Shown here: positions 12,700 to 17,564 of the stretch, in pieces
How the letters are laid out: each line of letters opens with the position of its first letter
Position numbering within the stretch: the stretch's first letter is position 1
Source of the DNA: Alphaproteobacteria bacterium
GTDB taxonomy: Bacteria > Pseudomonadota > Alphaproteobacteria > GM7ARS4 > G965262615
Length of the DNA stretch: 64,000 nt
Assembly (NCBI GenBank): GCA_965262615.1
Contig: OZ253545.1
Coordinates: 576,001 to 640,000, forward strand
Reading direction: 5' to 3'
Program-made: the position numbers and the translations under genes
Notes under the pieces: generated by a model
The model's input: only the letters and a program-made list of their open reading frames with translations
The model's database searches: none
Told to the model about the DNA's origin: nothing

Positions 12700-13278
12700 A
12701 TGAATCTTGACGCACTAATTGTAGGGCTTGGTAATTATGGCGAAGCGTATTGTCGCCATCGTCACAATGCGGGTTTTCGCATGGTGCGGGCGTTGATTGA
12801 TGCGCGCGGCTTGCCTGCTCCCAAAATGGATAAGAAGTTTGATTCTTTGATGACGCGCGGCACCATTGGGGATGTGCGCGCCATTGTGCTTCAGCCTCAA
12901 ACCTACATGAATCGCAGTGGTGAGGCGGTCAAGAAGGTCATGGATTATTTTGACTTGGATGTGGAACGCCTGTATGTGATTCATGATGATTTAGACTTGG
13001 CGTGCGGACAAATCAAAGTGAAGAGTGGTGGCGGAACGGCGGGTCATAACGGCTTGCGTTCATTGGATGCTCATGTGGGCAGCACGGATTATCATCGCTT
13101 GCGGGTGGGCATCGGACGCCCTTCCCACAAAGAAGATGTGGTGCGTTATGTTTTGCACGATTTCGCCAAAGAAGATGAAGAATGGCTTGTGCCGTGCGAG
13201 GAAAAAGTCAGCAAGGAGTTTCCTTTGTGGATTACCCAAGGGGATGAGGCTTTGCGTAGGCAATTGCAAAACAGCTGA
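12700..13278 (+). CDS. pth: Peptidyl-tRNA hydrolase
   Basis: VGLGN, RHNAGF, PQTYMNRSG, HDDLD, GHNGLRS. Confidence 0.97.
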   Translation: MNLDALIVGLGNYGEAYCRHRHNAGFRMVRALIDARGLPAPKMDKKFDSLMTRGTIGDVRAIVLQPQTYMNRSGEAVKKVMDYFDLDVERLYVIHDDLDLACGQIKVKSGGGTAGHNGLRSLDAHVGSTDYHRLRVGIGRPSHKEDVVRYVLHDFAKEDEEWLVPCEEKVSKEFPLWITQGDEALRRQLQNS

Positions 13279-14360
13279 TGGGTTTTTCGTGCGGCATTGT
13301 GGGCTTGCCCAATGCTGGAAAATCAACTTTTTTCAATGGTTTGATGACGCGTGCCGCGTCAGAATCCGCCAATTATCCCTTTTGCACCATAGAGCCTCAC
13401 AGAGGACAGGTGGCTGTGCCCGATGAGCGATTGACATCACTGGCGACTCTATCGGCTTCCCAAAGCGTCATTCCCGCCACCATTGAGGTGGTGGATATTG
13501 CCGGACTGGTGCGTGGTGCAAGTGAAGGCGAGGGTCTTGGCAATCGGTTTCTCGCCCACATTCGTGAGGTGGATGCCATTGCCCATGTGGTGCGCTGTTA
13601 TGAAAGTGAGCAGATTGTCCATGTGGAGTCGTCCGTTGATGCGGTGCGCGATGTGGACATTATCAACACCGAATTGATTTTGGCAGACTTGGCAACGGTG
13701 GAATCCATGACGGGCAGATTGCGTAAAAATCAGGACAAAGAAAGTCACGCCGTGAGAGCGTTGCTGGCGCGCTATGCAGCATGGCTCAATGAGGGCAAGC
13801 GAGCAAACCTCATGCCGCTGGAGGAAGCGGAGGAATTGTTGATTAAACACCTTCCCTTATTGACGCTCAAACCTCTTTTGTATGTGGCGAATGTGTCCGA
13901 TGGGGGCGGCGGCGATCATGCGGCGGCTCTGAGCGCGTATGCCTCTGAGGAAGGCGCGTTGTGCGTGTCTGTTGCCTGCGGCGCGGAGGCGGAAATTGTC
14001 GCATTGGAGGAAGACCAGCGAGATGATTATCGCTCCATGCTGGGGCTACAGACATCGGCATTGCAGCTGTTTTTGCAAAAAGGCTATGAACTTTTGGGAT
14101 TGCAGAGTTTTTTCACCTCAGGCCCCCAAGAGACGCGAGCGTGGTCGTATCCTGTGGGGACGGCGGCACCACAGGCAGCAGGATTGATTCACGGAGACTT
14201 TGAAAGAGGCTTTATCGCCGCCGAAGTGGCGCGCTACGAGGACATCATGGCTTGCAACGGCTGGGAAAACGCCAAAGCCCAAGGCAAAATACGCGTTCAA
14301 GGCAAAGACTATATCATGCAGGATGGCGATGTGGTCTTTTTTCGCTTCAATGTGCAGTGA
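13278..14360 (+). CDS. ychF: Redox-regulated ATPase YchF
   Basis: [39 protein letters not shown]. Confidence 0.98.
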
Positions 14361-14392
14361 TGGCGACAAGACAGAGGCTCATCCATCAAGCA

Positions 14393-14448
14393 CCATCAAT
14401 ATGGTCATGAGGGGTTTTCATTGAAGATGAAAATGACTATATTGGTGG
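14393..14448. repeat. Imperfect inverted repeat upstream of the hicB-like gene
   Basis: CATCAATATGGTCAT (14394-14408) pairs with ATGACTATATTGGTG (14433-14447) with two G:T; inner TTTCAT/ATGAAA stem. Confidence 0.6.
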
Positions 14449-14464
14449 GCAATGGAGGTCGCGA

Positions 14465-14818
14465 ATGAGTGGAAATCTTGAGTTGAATACAAAAGCTACG
14501 AGCGGCAAAATCAGTGTTGTCATCGTGAAAGACACGATGGGCTGTGTCGCGATTGGGCTGGAGCATTACATCGCCGCACAGGGTGATACCCCAAAGGATG
14601 CGATGCTTAATTTCGTCAAGACTCTTTATGCCGAGCTGACTTTTTGCTTTGAAAATGACTTGGGAGCTTTTGAGGGTATTGAGCCAGCTCCACAGGAGTA
14701 TTGGGACATGTATCATGCAGGGGCTAAAGATGAATTGGCTTCTGAAAGCAAGCAGGTCTCTCAAGATCAATTAAAGGTTTTTCAATTGCCGATGATTGAT
14801 TGCAGGTTGGCAGCTTGA
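14465..14818 (+). CDS. HicB-like antitoxin (partial RNase H fold)
   Basis: VAIGLEHYIAAQGDTPKDAMLNF resembles HicB tqGdT.eEA..n; SD GGAGG; TGATG coupling to next ORF. Confidence 0.65.
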   Translation: MSGNLELNTKATSGKISVVIVKDTMGCVAIGLEHYIAAQGDTPKDAMLNFVKTLYAELTFCFENDLGAFEGIEPAPQEYWDMYHAGAKDELASESKQVSQDQLKVFQLPMIDCRLAA

Positions 14819-15039
14819 TGGCAAAGCCGCTCATATACAAGGAATTTGAGGCAATTGCCATTAAAGAATTCTCTTGTGAGATTTATAAGGGTGCGATGAT
14901 ACATTTGACGCGCCATCATGAGGGTGTCTTGAAGCGAACGCCAGTTTTGTCGCCCCATGAGAAGATGAACCCTAGAATGATTCAGCAAATGTGCAAGCGT
15001 CTCAAGTTGCCACAGAAGCGATTTGAGGATTATCTGTAG
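14818..15039 (+). CDS. HicA-like toxin (small basic dsRBD-type protein)
   Basis: 73 aa, basic; PLIYKEF...IHL...EKMNPRMIQQMCKRLKL fits the HicA pattern; canonical GSH not conserved. Confidence 0.55.
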   Translation: MAKPLIYKEFEAIAIKEFSCEIYKGAMIHLTRHHEGVLKRTPVLSPHEKMNPRMIQQMCKRLKLPQKRFEDYL

Positions 15040-15045
15040 CAGATT

Positions 15046-15068
15046 CCCATCATTTGATGGGTTTTTTT
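15046..15068 (+). terminator. Rho-independent terminator after the TA pair
   Basis: CCCATC-ATTT-GATGGG followed by T7. Confidence 0.8.
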
Positions 15069-15139
15069 ATGTAGTGTCGTCAAAAGATGGACTTAATTTT
15101 TCGTGAAGTAAAGGAAAATCTAAATTTTTAACAAAAAGT

Positions 15140-15180
15140 GCTTGTGATCAATCAAAAAATGATCGTAGTTTCGGATCGCT
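15140..15180 (+). promoter_or_regulatory. Upstream region of the R-M operon with three clustered GATC sites
   Basis: GATC at 15146, 15161 and 15174, just upstream of SD GGAGG and ATG 15194. Confidence 0.5.
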
Positions 15181-15193
15181 CTGGAGGTTCGAA

Positions 15194-15955
15194 ATGGCAT
15201 CATCACAAAGCTGGCAAAAGATATTCAAAGACTATGATATTTTGAACCATGATTTTAGGTCAGGATACTTCCCTTTGTCCAATGACATGATAAAGGAGAG
15301 TTGCCAAAATTTCAAAGCAACAGGTGAAAAAGAGGTTCGCATCCTATGCAAACAAGATAGCCGTGAGGATGTTCCCGACATCATGCGCGAGCATGGGCTT
15401 TTTTTACTCCCCATCAAAAACGGCTCTTATGTCATCATAAAAGGCGAAGGATACATGGATATTCCAGAAATTGATGAAGTAGCAGAAAACTATCAATCAA
15501 AATTGGGCTTTACGCCTAAATCATCCAAAGTTGGCAATTCAGAAATGCAACATGTTGATTTTGCCTTTGCGACCAGCCTTATCAGAACTTTTATGGCAGA
15601 TGACAGTTTGGTTCTCACCATTAGAGGCAGAAAATACACACCTGAATTTTCTTTTAGAGTGGGGCAACAAAATATCGAAGTAAAAAGCGTTCAAACGGAA
15701 GTGGATGCGGGTTTTGAAGGCAAAGACAAAATTGTTCTTGTAGAAGCTAAAAATTCAAGAACAAAAAATGTGATTATAAGGCAGTTGTATTATCCCTTCA
15801 GAAAATGGGGAATTGAAACGGGCAAAAAAATCCATTCCTTGTTTTTTGAAAAAAGAGGTAAGGCATATTTCATTTGGGAGTATGACTTCAAAGACGAAGA
15901 GGATTACAACAGCATTGAGCTCATTAGAAGCGCAAAATTTGAAATTAAGAATTAA
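15194..15955 (+). CDS. Putative type II restriction endonuclease (PD-(D/E)xK)
   Basis: QTEVDAGFE...LVEAK...IRQLYYPFR nuclease motif; directly upstream of a DNA MTase; AT-rich. Confidence 0.75.
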   Translation: MASSQSWQKIFKDYDILNHDFRSGYFPLSNDMIKESCQNFKATGEKEVRILCKQDSREDVPDIMREHGLFLLPIKNGSYVIIKGEGYMDIPEIDEVAENYQSKLGFTPKSSKVGNSEMQHVDFAFATSLIRTFMADDSLVLTIRGRKYTPEFSFRVGQQNIEVKSVQTEVDAGFEGKDKIVLVEAKNSRTKNVIIRQLYYPFRKWGIETGKKIHSLFFEKRGKAYFIWEYDFKDEEDYNSIELIRSAKFEIKN

Positions 15956-15956
15956 G

Positions 15957-16748
15957 ATGAGCTTGTTTTTTTCAGAAGAAGCCATCAAGCTCTATCAAGA
16001 TGATTGCATTGCTGTGCTTGAACAGATGGAACAAGACGGGGTGCAATGCGATATGATATTTGCCGACCCACCTTATAATTTGTCCAACGATGGCATGAGC
16101 TGTCATGGTGGCAAAAGAGTGAGTGTCAATAAGGGTGAGTGGGATAAGTCAAACGGCTTAATGGAAGATGGGATTTTCACGGCAAAATGGATAGATGCTT
16201 GTCGCCGTATCCTAAAAGATAATGGCACAATTTGGATTAGTGGCACTCTGCATAATATCTATGTTGTCGGCTGGACATTGCAGCAGCTCAAATTTCACAT
16301 TCTCAATGACATCAGCTGGTTCAAGCCGAACGCGCCGCCACACTTGGCGTGTCGTTATTTTGCTCACTCTCATGAAACATTGCTATGGGCAAAAAAGAGC
16401 AAAAAGGCAAAGCACTACTTTGATTACCAACTCATGAAGCAGTGGGATGCCTCGCAAGACATGATAAAAAATGAAAAGAAACAAATGCGAAGTGTCTGGG
16501 CAATTGGCACGACTCCCAAAGCCGAAAAGGAATTGGGCAAACACCCCACGCAAAAACCATCGGAACTTTTGAGACGAATCATCCTTTCATCCACGCAAGA
16601 AGGCGATACGGTTCTTGACCCTTTTTGTGGCAGTGGAACAACGGGAGTCATCGCCAAAAAATATCGCCGCCACTTCATCGGCATTGACACCAACCCCACC
16701 TACCTCAGCCTCGCCCAAAACCGCATCCAAAAGATAAAAGCCGTTTAA
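15957..16748 (+). CDS. Beta-class DNA adenine methyltransferase, DpnA (M2.DpnII)-like, predicted GATC
   Basis: ADPPY, VSVNKGEWDK, WISGTLHNIY, CRYFAHSHET, KHPTQKP, LDPFCGSGTT; motif order and wording match DpnA as recalled. Confidence 0.9.
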   Translation: MSLFFSEEAIKLYQDDCIAVLEQMEQDGVQCDMIFADPPYNLSNDGMSCHGGKRVSVNKGEWDKSNGLMEDGIFTAKWIDACRRILKDNGTIWISGTLHNIYVVGWTLQQLKFHILNDISWFKPNAPPHLACRYFAHSHETLLWAKKSKKAKHYFDYQLMKQWDASQDMIKNEKKQMRSVWAIGTTPKAEKELGKHPTQKPSELLRRIILSSTQEGDTVLDPFCGSGTTGVIAKKYRRHFIGIDTNPTYLSLAQNRIQKIKAV

Positions 16749-16900
16749 CCGACAATGCAATTCATTATTCGACTTTTAGTTTTCAAAAAGTACACACCCC
16801 GTGATTTTTTCTTCTTTAGTACTAGTAAACGAAAAAAGTTATGTTATCTCTTGACAACCTTCTAGGAATTTGAGACAAGTACACCAGTAGCAGGTTGCGG

Positions 16901-16971
16901 TGGAGAGGAGGGGATTCGAACCCCCCGACATCAGATGTAAAGCCGGCGTTGTGCACCATAGCACCCTCCCC
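16901..16971 (-). ncRNA. Non-canonical tRNA-like RNA with alanine identity elements (G3:U70, A73)
   Basis: GGGGAGG/CCTCTCC acceptor stem plus A, then CCG; T arm GGGGG-TTCGAAT-CCCCT; D-like hairpin GTGC-TATGGT-GCAC; irregular anticodon arm. Confidence 0.65.
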
Positions 16972-17039
16972 CCTGCTGCTTATGAACTGTATCGGTTTCC
17001 CCTTGTGGGATGCCGATGCGGTCGCATAATCAATGACCC

Positions 17040-17068
17040 ACCATACCATATTGTTTTTCAAAAGTCAA
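17040..17068 (-). promoter_or_regulatory. Sigma70-like promoter pointing into the tRNA-like element
   Basis: Minus strand TTGACT-17 nt-TATGGT with TG before the -10. Confidence 0.6.
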
Positions 17069-17231
17069 GAACTTTTTCGGATTTTCCACAATCCATTGTG
17101 GGGTGATGCCTCGAGACCTACCATCAGCTGACGCTTGCGAGGGATTTCAATTGACACCAACGCCATCTTTTCCCCACCTTTCCGTCACTTTTTTCTTGCT
17201 TTTTATGAGTTTTTGAGGCATGACATATCTT

Positions 17232-17564
17232 ATGAGTGTTGCGATACGATTAGCACGAGGTGGGGCGAAGAAGCGTCCTTACTATCGCATTGTGGTTGCT
17301 GACAGGCGCATGAAGCGTGACGGCAGATTTATTGAGCGCGTGGGGTCATATAATCCCATGCTGGCGAAGGGGGATGCGGCGCGAGTTGTTCTCAATGAGG
17401 AGCGTATCCGATATTGGCTTGAATGTGGCGCGCAGCCGAGCGAGCGGGTGCAGAGTTTTTTGGCGGCTGCCAAGATGATGCCGCCGCGTGCCGTCCCGAA
17501 ACAGACGGTGCGTCATATTGCGCGCGCCAAACGCAGAGGCGAAGCTGCCACAGCGGCATCATGA
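17232..17564 (+). CDS. rpsP: 30S ribosomal protein S16
   Basis: [20 protein letters not shown]...RDGRFIE. Confidence 0.98.

What the first reader, a model, noticed from the sequence alone, without database searches (positions are those of the whole stretch)
16880..17068. Compact tRNA-like RNA with alanine identity elements and its own promoter inside a defence islet
Seen (minus strand 16971 to 16901, 71 nt): GGGGAGG GTGC-TATGGT-GCAC A ACGCCGG-CTTTACAT-CTGATGT CG GGGGG-TTCGAAT-CCCCT CCTCTCC A (CCG). The acceptor stem and T arm are intact, with G1-C72, G2-C71, G3:U70 and A73. There is no U8/A9 linker, the anticodon-like stem is 7 bp and irregular with an 8-nt loop, and the variable region is 2 nt. 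The flanks AGCAGCAGG...CCTGCTACT can extend the stem, and TTGACT-N17-TATGGT lies about 70 nt upstream. Known: G3:U70 plus A73 is the AlaRS identity set shared by tRNA-Ala and the tRNA-like domain of tmRNA; non-canonical tRNA-like genes have been described near TA modules. Inference: an expressed, possibly alanylated tRNA or TLD mimic with no normal decoding role, such as a nuclease decoy, RNA antitoxin or ribosome-interacting RNA. It points convergently at the R-M operon.
Basis: partly seen in the sequence, partly recalled or inferred. Interest (0 to 1): 0.75.

Follow-up and report, generated by a model that had tools for sequence, protein, structure and literature searches.

The report
Orphan tRNA-shaped relic beside restriction genes
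A 74-base sequence has the intact top half of an alanine tRNA but a scrambled core, sits in a strain-specific scrap of foreign DNA, and is most likely a leftover tRNA gene, not a new working RNA.

Summary
The sequence is real and not chance. On the minus strand at 16971-16898 it has a 7-bp acceptor stem (G1-C72, G2-C71, G3:U70, G4-C69, A73) and a canonical T arm. The tmRNA model matches those two parts only (22.1 bits, below the cut-off of 47). ARAGORN and Rfam at gathering level call nothing. The 37-nt core resembles no tRNA of this genome (p about 0.3).

The element lies in a 332-bp "cargo" (16749-17080) between an intact DNA methylase gene and a decayed remnant of another methylase 3' end. 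All of this sits in a 2.9-kb insert between ychF and rpsP, which are adjacent in 2 of 3 genomes of the same order.

It has no full-length homologue in 40 relatives or in three public collections. It is not linked to the toxin-antitoxin-like pair or to the restriction-modification genes. Contigs of one run skip or replace it. The promoter match is at chance level, and no RNA data exist.

The only look-alikes are two 56-57-nt mini tRNA-like sequences in phage-like metagenome contigs.

Best reading (0.55): a tRNA-derived relic brought in with foreign DNA. An alanine-chargeable tRNA mimic remains possible (about 0.25). Interest is modest.

The parts
16898..16971 (-). tRNA-shaped element, 74 nt including CCG: acceptor stem, D-like hairpin, irregular middle arm, T arm, A73
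   Evidence: Sequence; tmRNA model 22.1 bits over model ends 1-374; fold z -2.4; no ARAGORN call
16965..16971 (-). Acceptor 5' strand GGGGAGG (G3 = 16969)
   Evidence: Pairs with 16902-16908 in the folds; chance of such a partner about 1%
16951..16964 (-). D-like hairpin GTGC-TATGGT-GCAC, directly after the acceptor strand, with GG in the loop
   Evidence: Fold; sequence
16925..16946 (-). Middle arm CCGGC...GTCGG enclosing TTTACATCTGAT; no 7-nt anticodon loop
   Evidence: Fold; core not significantly like any of the 44 own tRNAs
16901..16924 (-). T arm (GGGG-TTCGAAT-CCCCT), acceptor 3' strand CCTCTCC and A73
   Evidence: 25/27 identical to own tRNA-Ser(GCT); 24-mer identical in L117, L118 and a tRNA-Leu in L119
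16886..16980 (-). Flanking inverted repeat AGCAGCAGG / CCTGCTACT that extends the stem
   Evidence: Fold of 111 nt. A contig of run X1 joins 16904 to 16971, which leaves only this hairpin
17040..17068 (-). Promoter-like TTGACT-N17-TATGGT, 69 nt upstream of G1
   Evidence: Scan: 9 of 12 matches with a TG extension, but the site count is not above shuffles
16749..17080 (.). 332-bp strain-specific 'cargo' that holds the element and the promoter-like site
   Evidence: Left edge is the M stop codon; right edge is the start of similarity to the locus-2 unit boundaries. Skipped or replaced in other contigs
17081..17200 (+). Decayed remnant resembling the 3' end of a DNA methylase gene, including the direct-repeat copy 17150-17168
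   Evidence: Alignment A2. Local alignment to the three locus-2 unit boundaries z 3.7-6.5, 0 of 500 shuffles reach it. Repeat D5 is 17/19 identical
15813..16748 (+). N6-adenine DNA methylase (beta class, CcrM/HinfI-like); the true start is probably downstream of 15813
   Evidence: Pfam N6_N4_Mtase 4.4e-61; NCBIfam CcrM model 249 bits, below its cut-off
15194..15955 (+). Putative restriction enzyme (DUF6996 + DUF6997)
   Evidence: Pfam; 82 homologues across many phyla, the best 80 of them kept as loci; low G+C of 36-38%
14465..15039 (+). Two small overlapping ORFs (117 and 79 aa), a possible toxin-antitoxin pair of no recognised family
   Evidence: No Pfam or NCBIfam hit; paralogue at C1:217263-217977, 74% identical over 715 nt
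13278..14360 (+). ychF, left border of the 2.86-kb insert
   Evidence: Pfam; adjacent to rpsP in G001 and G003
17220..17564 (+). rpsP (S16), right border of the insert, followed by rimM, trmD and rplS
   Evidence: Pfam; synteny

Best explanation
The element is a tRNA-gene derivative (a pseudo-tRNA) that arrived as a passenger on foreign DNA. It is not a conserved working gene.

Shown: ychF and rpsP were once neighbours. A 2.86-kb insert now separates them. It consists of a toxin-antitoxin-like pair, a restriction-modification pair, a 332-bp cargo and a decayed remnant of another methylase 3' end.

Inferred: a restriction-modification cassette recombined into an older methylase gene together with 332 bp of its donor's downstream DNA. 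This left the old 3' remnant next to rpsP, and the tRNA-shaped sequence came in on that donor flank.

Inferred: the acceptor stem and T arm are intact while the core is unrecognisable. This suggests a few internal rearrangements of a tRNA gene, not slow point decay. The source could be an Ala-type gene, or a Ser/Leu-type acceptor with A3 changed to G.

The alanine identity set is then inherited or incidental. If the element is transcribed, RNase P, the CCA-adding enzyme and AlaRS could act on it. Nothing shows that this happens or matters.
For: 1. Foreign, variable setting.
- In 2 of 3 genomes of the same order, ychF lies 90-140 nt from rpsP; the third has ffh between them.
- G+C falls to 36-44% over the restriction-modification genes.
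- Positions 17081-17200 resemble methylase-end remnants that also bound three tandem units at a second locus.

2. No conservation.
- 0 of 40 relatives have a full-length match; only 25-30-nt T-arm matches were found.
- A pattern for the element found 0 hits in genome contigs, viral contigs and metagenome contigs.
- The cargo matches nothing else among the 255 fetched loci searched (of 270 held; the 15 taken from this genome were left out), apart from T-arm/acceptor stretches.

3. Not coupled to its neighbours.
- 0 of 80 loci encoding homologues of the restriction enzyme carry it.
- The toxin-antitoxin paralogue locus has none.

4. Polymorphic.
- In run X1, one contig (depth 16.2) joins 16904 to 16971 and so skips 66 nt of the element.
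- Another (depth 6) joins 16796 to 16981, and another joins 16701 to 17189 with 12 other letters between.
- The contig that holds the element has depth 8.9.
- One 5704-nt contig of run X7 bridges 15437 to 17148 with different content (all).

5. tRNA descent of the shell.
- The 3' 27 nt are 25/27 identical to own tRNA-Ser(GCT).
- The 24-mer is identical to a tRNA-Leu in L119.
- A phage tRNA-Ala (L224) has the same GGGGAGG strand.

6. The promoter is at chance level and there is no terminator.

7. tRNA gene fragments at the edges of acquired DNA are a documented class (PMC9897764, section 12 read).
Against: - Neutral decay should not spare all 12 base pairs of the acceptor/T-arm stack and a consensus T loop while erasing the core. 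The core shows no significant tRNA similarity.
- The 5' acceptor strand is present, which ordinary att-type 3' fragments lack. Its chance occurrence is about 1%.
- The full alanine identity set is intact and equals that of the three tRNA-Ala genes.
- The hairpin next to the acceptor strand has GG in its loop, as a D loop does.
- The ACCG end matches 4 of 44 genuine tRNA genes.
- Two phage-like contigs carry a 56-57-nt mini with the same GGGGAG...CTCTCC-A shell, G3:U70 and an encoded CCA. This hints at a recurring design.
- No donor tRNA was identified.
Confidence: 0.55

Rival explanations
1. It is a working tRNA mimic carried by mobile DNA. The minus strand is transcribed, RNase P cuts at G1, the 3' end is trimmed and completed to CCA, and AlaRS charges it through G3:U70 and A73. 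The Ala-charged 'top half' cannot decode. It would act off the ribosome or as a mimic of the tmRNA tRNA-like domain, for example as an alanine donor, a decoy for an acceptor-end-directed enzyme, or a ribosome or EF-Tu ligand.
For: - The 7-bp acceptor plus 5-bp T stem gives an intact 12-bp stack, and the T loop is canonical.
- The identity nucleotides equal those of the three tRNA-Ala genes.
- The tmRNA model matches both ends.
- The CC-G end is used by 4 of 44 real tRNA genes, and a CCA-adding-enzyme homologue scores 102.6 bits.
- Fold z is -2.4.
- The phage-like contigs L117 and L118 carry a mini with the same shell, G3:U70, a hairpin with GG in its loop directly after the acceptor strand, and an encoded CCA.
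- Abstracts in the listing state that minihelices of acceptor stem plus T arm are used as AlaRS substrates (PMC11392972). They also state that the tmRNA upper half is cut by RNase P, alanylated and bound by EF-Tu (PMC3985003).
Against: - It is a singleton: no homologue in 40 relatives or in three collections.
- It is skipped or replaced in contigs of the same run at equal or higher depth.
- The phage mini is not conserved either: 0 of 17 loci with homologues of its neighbouring rIIB-like gene have a tRNA-like sequence there.
- The promoter is at chance level and there is no terminator.
- No covariation is available, because the shared parts are identical.
- There is no U8/A9 and no variable loop, so an L-shaped fold is uncertain.
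Confidence: 0.25
2. It acts at the DNA level. A tRNA-like, hairpin-forming sequence serves or served as a recombination or attachment site for cassette exchange at the ychF-rpsP hot spot, in the way tRNA and tmRNA gene ends serve integrases.
For: - It lies at the junction of variable and conserved DNA.
- The 3' part is nearly identical to tRNA-Ser(GCT).
- The genome has three full tRNA-Ser(CGA) copies 6.2 and 6.9 kb apart that share only about 160 nt. This shows tRNA-anchored acquisition.
- The deletion joint in run X1 lies within the paired acceptor strands, near the base of the stem.
Against: - There is no partner repeat and no intact tRNA at the other end of the insert.
- Only two tyrosine-recombinase hits exist in the whole genome, at 22 kb and 409 kb, both far away.
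- The boundaries of the variable segment are the methylase-end repeats, not the element.
- A 5' acceptor strand is not needed for an att site.
Confidence: 0.1
3. It is a highly aberrant but decoding tRNA, for example one that reads through a 12-nt loop holding TTTACAT.
For: Its length is close to that of a tRNA. The loop begins TTTACAT, one base from the TTTGCAT loop of a phage tRNA-Ala(UGC).
Against: - ARAGORN calls nothing and Rfam at gathering level calls nothing.
- No 5-bp stem closes a 7-nt loop.
- There is no U8/A9 and no variable loop.
- The genome already has 44 tRNA genes.
Confidence: 0.03
4. It is a chance resemblance, or part of a small protein-coding gene.
For: ORFs of 79 aa (minus strand) and 68 aa (plus strand) overlap it.
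Against: - cmscan E is 4.9e-7.
- The chance of a 7-bp partner strand is about 1%.
- The 79-aa ORF has no homologue in the near-length search.
Confidence: 0.02

Closest known systems
tRNA gene fragments and pseudo-tRNAs at the edges of horizontally acquired DNA (PMC9897764, section 12 read; B. cereus tRNA-Other, PMC3399842, abstract seen in the listing)
   Same: T arm and acceptor sequence nearly identical to a canonical tRNA. Sits at the border of foreign DNA. Not a canonical tRNA and not used for decoding.
   Different: Both acceptor strands are present. There is no direct-repeat partner, no intact tRNA at the other end and no integrase. The core is replaced, not truncated. Unlike tRNA-Other, no phenotype or expression is known.
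tRNA-like domain of tmRNA (Rfam RF00023)
   Same: Acceptor stem with G3:U70 and A73, a T arm, a reduced D region and no anticodon. The model aligns to both ends.
   Different: Scores 22.1 bits against a cut-off of 47. It has 36 nt where the model has 328: no messenger part, tag frame or pseudoknots. The genome has its own two-piece tmRNA at C1:125475-125777 with a different acceptor sequence.
tRNA-Ala (three genes in this genome; phage tRNA-Ala in L224)
   Same: GGGG...CTCC-A identity nucleotides. L224 shares the whole 5' strand GGGGAGG and a loop one base different.
   Different: No U8/A9, no canonical D stem, no 7-nt anticodon loop closed by a 5-bp stem, and no variable loop. ARAGORN does not call it. 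Core similarity is not significant.
56-57-nt mini tRNA-like sequences in the phage-like metagenome contigs L117 and L118
   Same: Same 5' GGGGAG. The 36 nt from CTGAT through the T arm, CTCTCC and ACC are 33/36 identical. Both have G3:U70, a hairpin with GG in its loop directly after the acceptor strand, and a similar tmRNA-model score of 23.5-23.8 bits.
   Different: The phage minis lack the second hairpin, encode CCA, and lie 8 nt after an rIIB-like gene on the same strand. The flanks are unrelated. They are not conserved in 17 related phage loci.
tRNA-like processing signals and mimics (plant mitochondrial t-elements, mascRNA, bacterial YrlA); recalled, not tested
   Same: Acceptor/T-arm mimicry recognised by tRNA-processing enzymes without any decoding.
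   Different: No Rfam match to any such family at E up to 10. There is no upstream gene on the element's strand whose transcript end it could define.

Membership tests
Canonical tRNA | Cloverleaf with a 7-nt anticodon loop on a 5-bp stem, U8/A9, a D arm and a variable loop | tested here: not met
   ARAGORN found 0 genes in the window. Rfam gathering found none. The fold shows no such arm.
Canonical tRNA | 7-bp acceptor stem stacked on a 5-bp T stem with a GTTCRANYC-type T loop | tested here: met
   Sequence and folds.
tmRNA (RF00023) | Score at or above the curated cut-off of 47 bits | tested here: not met
   22.1 bits.
tmRNA (RF00023) | Messenger-like part with a resume codon and tag frame, plus pseudoknots | tested here: not met
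   Only 36 nt lie between the two ends. ARAGORN finds the real tmRNA elsewhere.
tmRNA (RF00023) | tRNA-like domain with G3:U70 and A73 | tested here: met
   Sequence and the cmscan alignment.
att-type tRNA fragment left by an integrating element | Near-exact copy of the end of an intact tRNA gene in the same genome | tested here: inconclusive
   25/27 identical to tRNA-Ser(GCT), which lies 542 kb away. A 5' strand is also present.
att-type tRNA fragment left by an integrating element | An intact target tRNA at the other end of the island, in direct repeat | tested here: not met
   No tRNA in the window. No matching repeat in 14000-17400.
att-type tRNA fragment left by an integrating element | An integrase gene in the island | tested here: not met
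   Only two PF00589 hits in the genome, at 22 kb and 409 kb.
AlaRS substrate (tRNA-Ala or minihelix-Ala) | G3:U70 with A73, G2-C71 and G4-C69 (the identity set is recalled knowledge) | tested here: met
   Sequence. Identical positions in the three tRNA-Ala genes.
AlaRS substrate (tRNA-Ala or minihelix-Ala) | A mature 3' CCA end | tested here: inconclusive
   The gene reads CCG. 26 of 44 tRNA genes lack an encoded CCA and 4 end N-CC-G. A CCA-adding-enzyme homologue is present.
AlaRS substrate (tRNA-Ala or minihelix-Ala) | Actual aminoacylation | not testable with these tools
   Needs an in vitro or in vivo charging assay.
Expressed small-RNA gene | Promoter, terminator and transcript | tested here: inconclusive
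   The promoter-like site is not above chance and there is no terminator. Transcription could not be tested.
Conserved structured RNA family | Homologues in several lineages with compensatory base changes | tested here: not met
   No homologue. The only look-alikes (L117, L118) are identical in the shared paired parts.

The most novel reading that the evidence does not exclude
Mobile DNA, here a restriction-modification islet and separately a phage, carries a previously unrecognised class of anticodon-less 'top-half' tRNA-Ala mimics. They would be transcribed, cut by RNase P, completed to CCA and charged with alanine. They would act away from decoding, for example as a decoy or competitor for enzymes that attack or use the acceptor end, or as a minimal analogue of the tmRNA tRNA-like domain.
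Probability: 0.15. Interest if true: 0.75.

Novelty: new member of a known kind. Interest (0 to 1): 0.3.

Why it matters
If it is a relic, it is a clear worked example of how tRNA-shaped debris marks recombination scars in a small genome, and of why such shapes should not be annotated as genes. If the minority reading holds, a chargeable, anticodon-less alanine acceptor on mobile DNA would add a new kind of tRNA mimic to bacterial and phage biology. The two phage minis would make that directly testable by charging assays.

Tried and rejected
- ARAGORN on the window found nothing. Rfam at gathering level found nothing.
- BLAST of the element in 40 relatives found only T-arm pieces.
- The pattern GGGGAGGGTGC..GCAC..GGTTCGAATCC found 0 hits in genome contigs, viral contigs and metagenome contigs.
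- A 22-mer of the 3' end found 0 hits in viral contigs.
- A 23-mer with up to 1 mismatch was tried in 400 genomes of the class. The one other hit has G73, the serine discriminator; it was not inspected further.
100 were tRNA or tmRNA genes called by ARAGORN and 27 were not. Most of the 27 are 3' fragments; only L207 (67 nt) and L230 (64 nt) are short forms with a 7-bp partner.
- Three more viral patterns found only ordinary tRNAs or nothing.
- The phage and plasmid collections matched nothing beyond T arms and the methylase gene.
- Sequencing runs: no RNA holder listed.
- Runs X5 and X6 give no cover over 16813-17074. X5 contigs run on as unlike sequence beyond 16753 and before 17139. No X5 or X6 contig joins across, so this is not counted as evidence.
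- The core was compared with the 44 own tRNAs. The best was tRNA-Ala(UGC) at p = 0.29; tRNA-Ser(GCT) gave p = 0.18. Descent of the core from a tRNA is therefore not shown.
- The 79-aa ORF has no homologue in the near-length search. Longer and shorter lengths were not searched.
- The hicAB identity of the small ORFs has no Pfam or NCBIfam support.
- The 15-nt repeat at 14840 and 16864 (14/15) is judged to be at chance level (my estimate is about 0.25 expected).
- Literature searches listed no paper on anticodon-less tRNA-Ala mimics in bacterial islets. Supplements were not consulted.

Full report
**What is there**

On the minus strand, 16971 to 16898 reads GGGGAGG / GTGC-TATGGT-GCAC / AACG / CCGGC-TTTACATCTGAT-GTCGG / GGGG-TTCGAAT-CCCCT / CCTCTCC / A / CCG.
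- ARAGORN calls no tRNA or tmRNA anywhere in the window. No Rfam family reaches its gathering score.
- With relaxed thresholds the tmRNA model RF00023 aligns to the acceptor stem and T arm only. It puts 36 nt where the model has 328, and scores 22.1 bits (cut-off 47), E 4.9e-7.
- In the whole genome this model gives 13 matches. Eleven are called genes (ten tRNAs and the tmRNA), one is a 17-nt piece, and one is this element.
- The 74-mer folds into a four-way junction with the acceptor and T stems intact: -31.7 kcal/mol, z -2.4, 5 of 200 shuffles as good.
- The flanks AGCAGCAGG and CCTGCTACT extend the stem.
- If only the 3' part were a stray tRNA fragment, a perfectly pairing 7-mer 25-75 nt upstream would be expected in about 1% of cases.

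**What it is not**
- It is not an ordinary tRNA. There is no U8/A9, no variable loop, and no 7-nt loop closed by a 5-bp stem.
- The 37 nt between the acceptor strand and the T arm are no more like any of the 44 tRNA genes of this genome than shuffled versions. The best match was tRNA-Ala(UGC), with p = 0.29 for the best of 44; tRNA-Ser(GCT) alone gave p = 0.18.
- It is not the organism's tmRNA. That is a two-piece gene at C1:125475-125777 with the tag ANDNQVALAA and another acceptor sequence.
- The overlapping 79-aa ORF has no homologue in the near-length search.

**The alanine features**
- G1-C72, G2-C71, G3:U70, G4-C69 and A73 are present. GGGG...CTCCA is exactly what the three tRNA-Ala genes have.
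- The genomic end A-CC-G is not a defect here. 26 of 44 tRNA genes lack an encoded CCA, and four of them (Thr-UGU, Val-UAC, Val-GAC, Glu-UUC) end N-CC-G.
- A CCA-adding-enzyme homologue is present at 102.6 bits.
- That such a top half could be cut by RNase P and charged by AlaRS follows from established work. I recall the work on minihelices. The abstracts of PMC11392972 and PMC3985003, seen in the listing, state the minihelix use and the tmRNA properties.

This shows feasibility, not function.

**Where it sits**
- Pfam gives ychF (13278-14360), two small ORFs of no known family, a DUF6996/DUF6997 protein (15194-15955), an N6_N4 DNA methylase (to 16748), then rpsP-rimM-trmD-rplS from 17220.
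- NCBIfam places the methylase nearest CcrM-type adenine methylases, below the cut-off, and finds nothing for the small ORFs.
- G+C drops to 36-44% over the restriction-modification genes.
- In two of the three other genomes of the order, ychF is 90-140 nt from rpsP with the same upstream genes. The third has ffh between them.

The 2.86 kb between ychF and rpsP is therefore an insert, and no tRNA gene is ancestral to this site.

**Fine structure of the insert**
- A self-search of the genome showed a second locus (C1:214.5-218 kb). It has a paralogue of the two small ORFs, 74% identical over 715 nt.
- That paralogue is followed by three tandem units of about 870 nt. Each starts with a remnant of the methylase 3' end (92.6% over 54 nt; 76-78% over 89 nt) and carries a retropepsin-like ORF.
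- The stretch just before rpsP in the window (17081-17200) aligns with those unit boundaries: z 3.7-6.5, and 0 of 500 shuffles reach the score for the three units. It contains the 17/19 repeat of 16683-16701.

The layout is thus: small ORF pair | R | M | 332-bp cargo (16749-17080) | old methylase-end remnant | rpsP. The tRNA-shaped element and the promoter-like site are the only notable content of the cargo.

**Conservation and linkage**
- No full-length match was found in 40 relatives.
- The element's pattern was not found in one genome per 185,579 species, in IMG/VR, or in JGI metagenomes.
- None of 80 loci encoding homologues of the restriction enzyme, which are spread over many phyla, has it. 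Five have an ordinary tRNA within 4 kb.
- The paralogous small-ORF locus has no such element.
- Only two tyrosine recombinases are encoded in the genome, both far away.

**Population evidence** (contigs of public runs)

In run X1, the contig holding the element (16856-17076, no differences) has depth 8.9. Alongside it:
- one contig of depth 16.2 joins 16904 to 16971, skipping 66 nt of the element and leaving only the flanking hairpin;
- one of depth 6 joins 16796 to 16981;
- one joins 16701 to 17189 with 12 other letters between.

The tool could not say whether other letters stand in the first two gaps, and depths are not cell shares. In run X7 a single 5704-nt contig bridges 15437 to 17148 with different content, including a methylase-like piece in the opposite orientation. 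So the element is dispensable or replaceable among close relatives.

**The only look-alikes**
- The 24-mer covering the T arm and acceptor 3' strand occurs in three metagenome contigs. One is a normal tRNA-Leu (L119).
- The other two, L117 and L118, carry a 56-57-nt sequence: GGGGAG, a hairpin CCGG-AGGTT-CCGG, CCTGATCA(A), the same T arm, CTCTCC, A, CCA.
- This mini has G3:U70, is not called by ARAGORN, and scores 23.5-23.8 bits on the tmRNA model. It shares 33 of 36 nt with the window element.
- The contigs look phage-derived. They have rIIB-like DNA matches to 35 phage records, a Toprim/T7-primase-like ORF and a phosphoesterase.
- Among 17 viral loci with homologues of the neighbouring gene, none has a tRNA-like sequence at that place.
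- Other short alanine-type forms do occur sporadically in viral contigs (L207 at 67 nt; L230 at 64 nt, a tRNA-Ala without an anticodon arm). They are 2 of 127 pattern hits.

**Weighing**

For a relic: the setting is foreign and variable, the element is a singleton, it is linked to neither neighbouring system, it is polymorphic, the promoter is at chance level (9 sites found against 5.3 +/- 2.4 expected), and there is no terminator.

Against simple decay: the top half is perfectly preserved, the identity set is complete, a D-like hairpin has GG in its loop, and a similar mini recurs in a phage.

I put 0.55 on a tRNA-derived passenger relic, formed by a few internal rearrangements and imported on the donor flank of the restriction-modification cassette. 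I put 0.25 on a working alanine-accepting mimic, 0.10 on a DNA-level recombination role, and the rest on minor readings. tRNA fragments at the edges of acquired DNA are well documented (PMC9897764, section 12 read). This case differs in having both acceptor strands.

**Limits**
- No RNA data could be found.
- The alleles behind the joints could not be read.
- The public collections could be searched only by exact patterns, so diverged structural relatives would be missed.
- Supplements of papers were not consulted.

Noticed in passing
G000:C1:214545-217977 (L269 2545-5977): A second copy of the two small ORFs (74% identical over 715 nt). It is followed by three tandem units of about 870 nt (67-93% identical). 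Each starts with a methylase 3'-end remnant and carries a retropepsin-like (gag-asp_proteas) ORF. The array ends next to tRNA-Arg(ACG). It looks like a recombining cassette array without a recombinase.
   Followed up: partly
G000:C1:1427219-1427308, 1433442-1433531, 1440299-1440388: Three full-length tRNA-Ser(CGA) genes 6.2 and 6.9 kb apart. They share only about 160 nt (90-98% identical), with unrelated DNA between them. The genome has no phage-type integrase beyond two Xer-like hits.
   Followed up: partly
L240 about 1302-1530 (Brevundimonas phage vB_BpoS-Kabachok, ON529852.1): An unannotated stretch of about 228 nt between two tRNA-Ser genes. It starts GGGGGCG and ends with a T arm plus GCCTCCACCA, like a compact tmRNA. 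ARAGORN does not call it. The same 27-nt match is unannotated in 7 related jumbo phages.
   Followed up: no
L207 2190-2213 region; L230 674-697 region (viral contigs): Sporadic short alanine-type tRNA-like sequences in viral contigs: a 67-nt form without a D arm, and a 64-nt tRNA-Ala lacking the anticodon arm that lies near normal tRNA-Ala genes.
   Followed up: partly
window 16683-16701 and 17150-17168: A 19-nt direct repeat (17/19) inside the methylase 3' end and in the remnant before rpsP. One X1 contig joins 16701 to 17189 with 12 other letters between, which would remove the cargo and change the methylase C-terminus.
   Followed up: partly
G000:C1:125475-125777: The genome's tmRNA is of the permuted, two-piece type, with the tag ANDNQVALAA.
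   Followed up: no
L032 4335-5705 (G002): One genome of the order keeps ffh between ychF and rpsP, while two others and this genome do not.
   Followed up: no
window 15194-15955: The DUF6996/DUF6997 protein next to the methylase has 53-68% identical homologues from Woesearchaeota to Bacteroidota, Planctomycetota, Patescibacteria and Campylobacterota. It has no solved relative by sequence. It is probably a widely exchanged restriction enzyme.
   Followed up: partly
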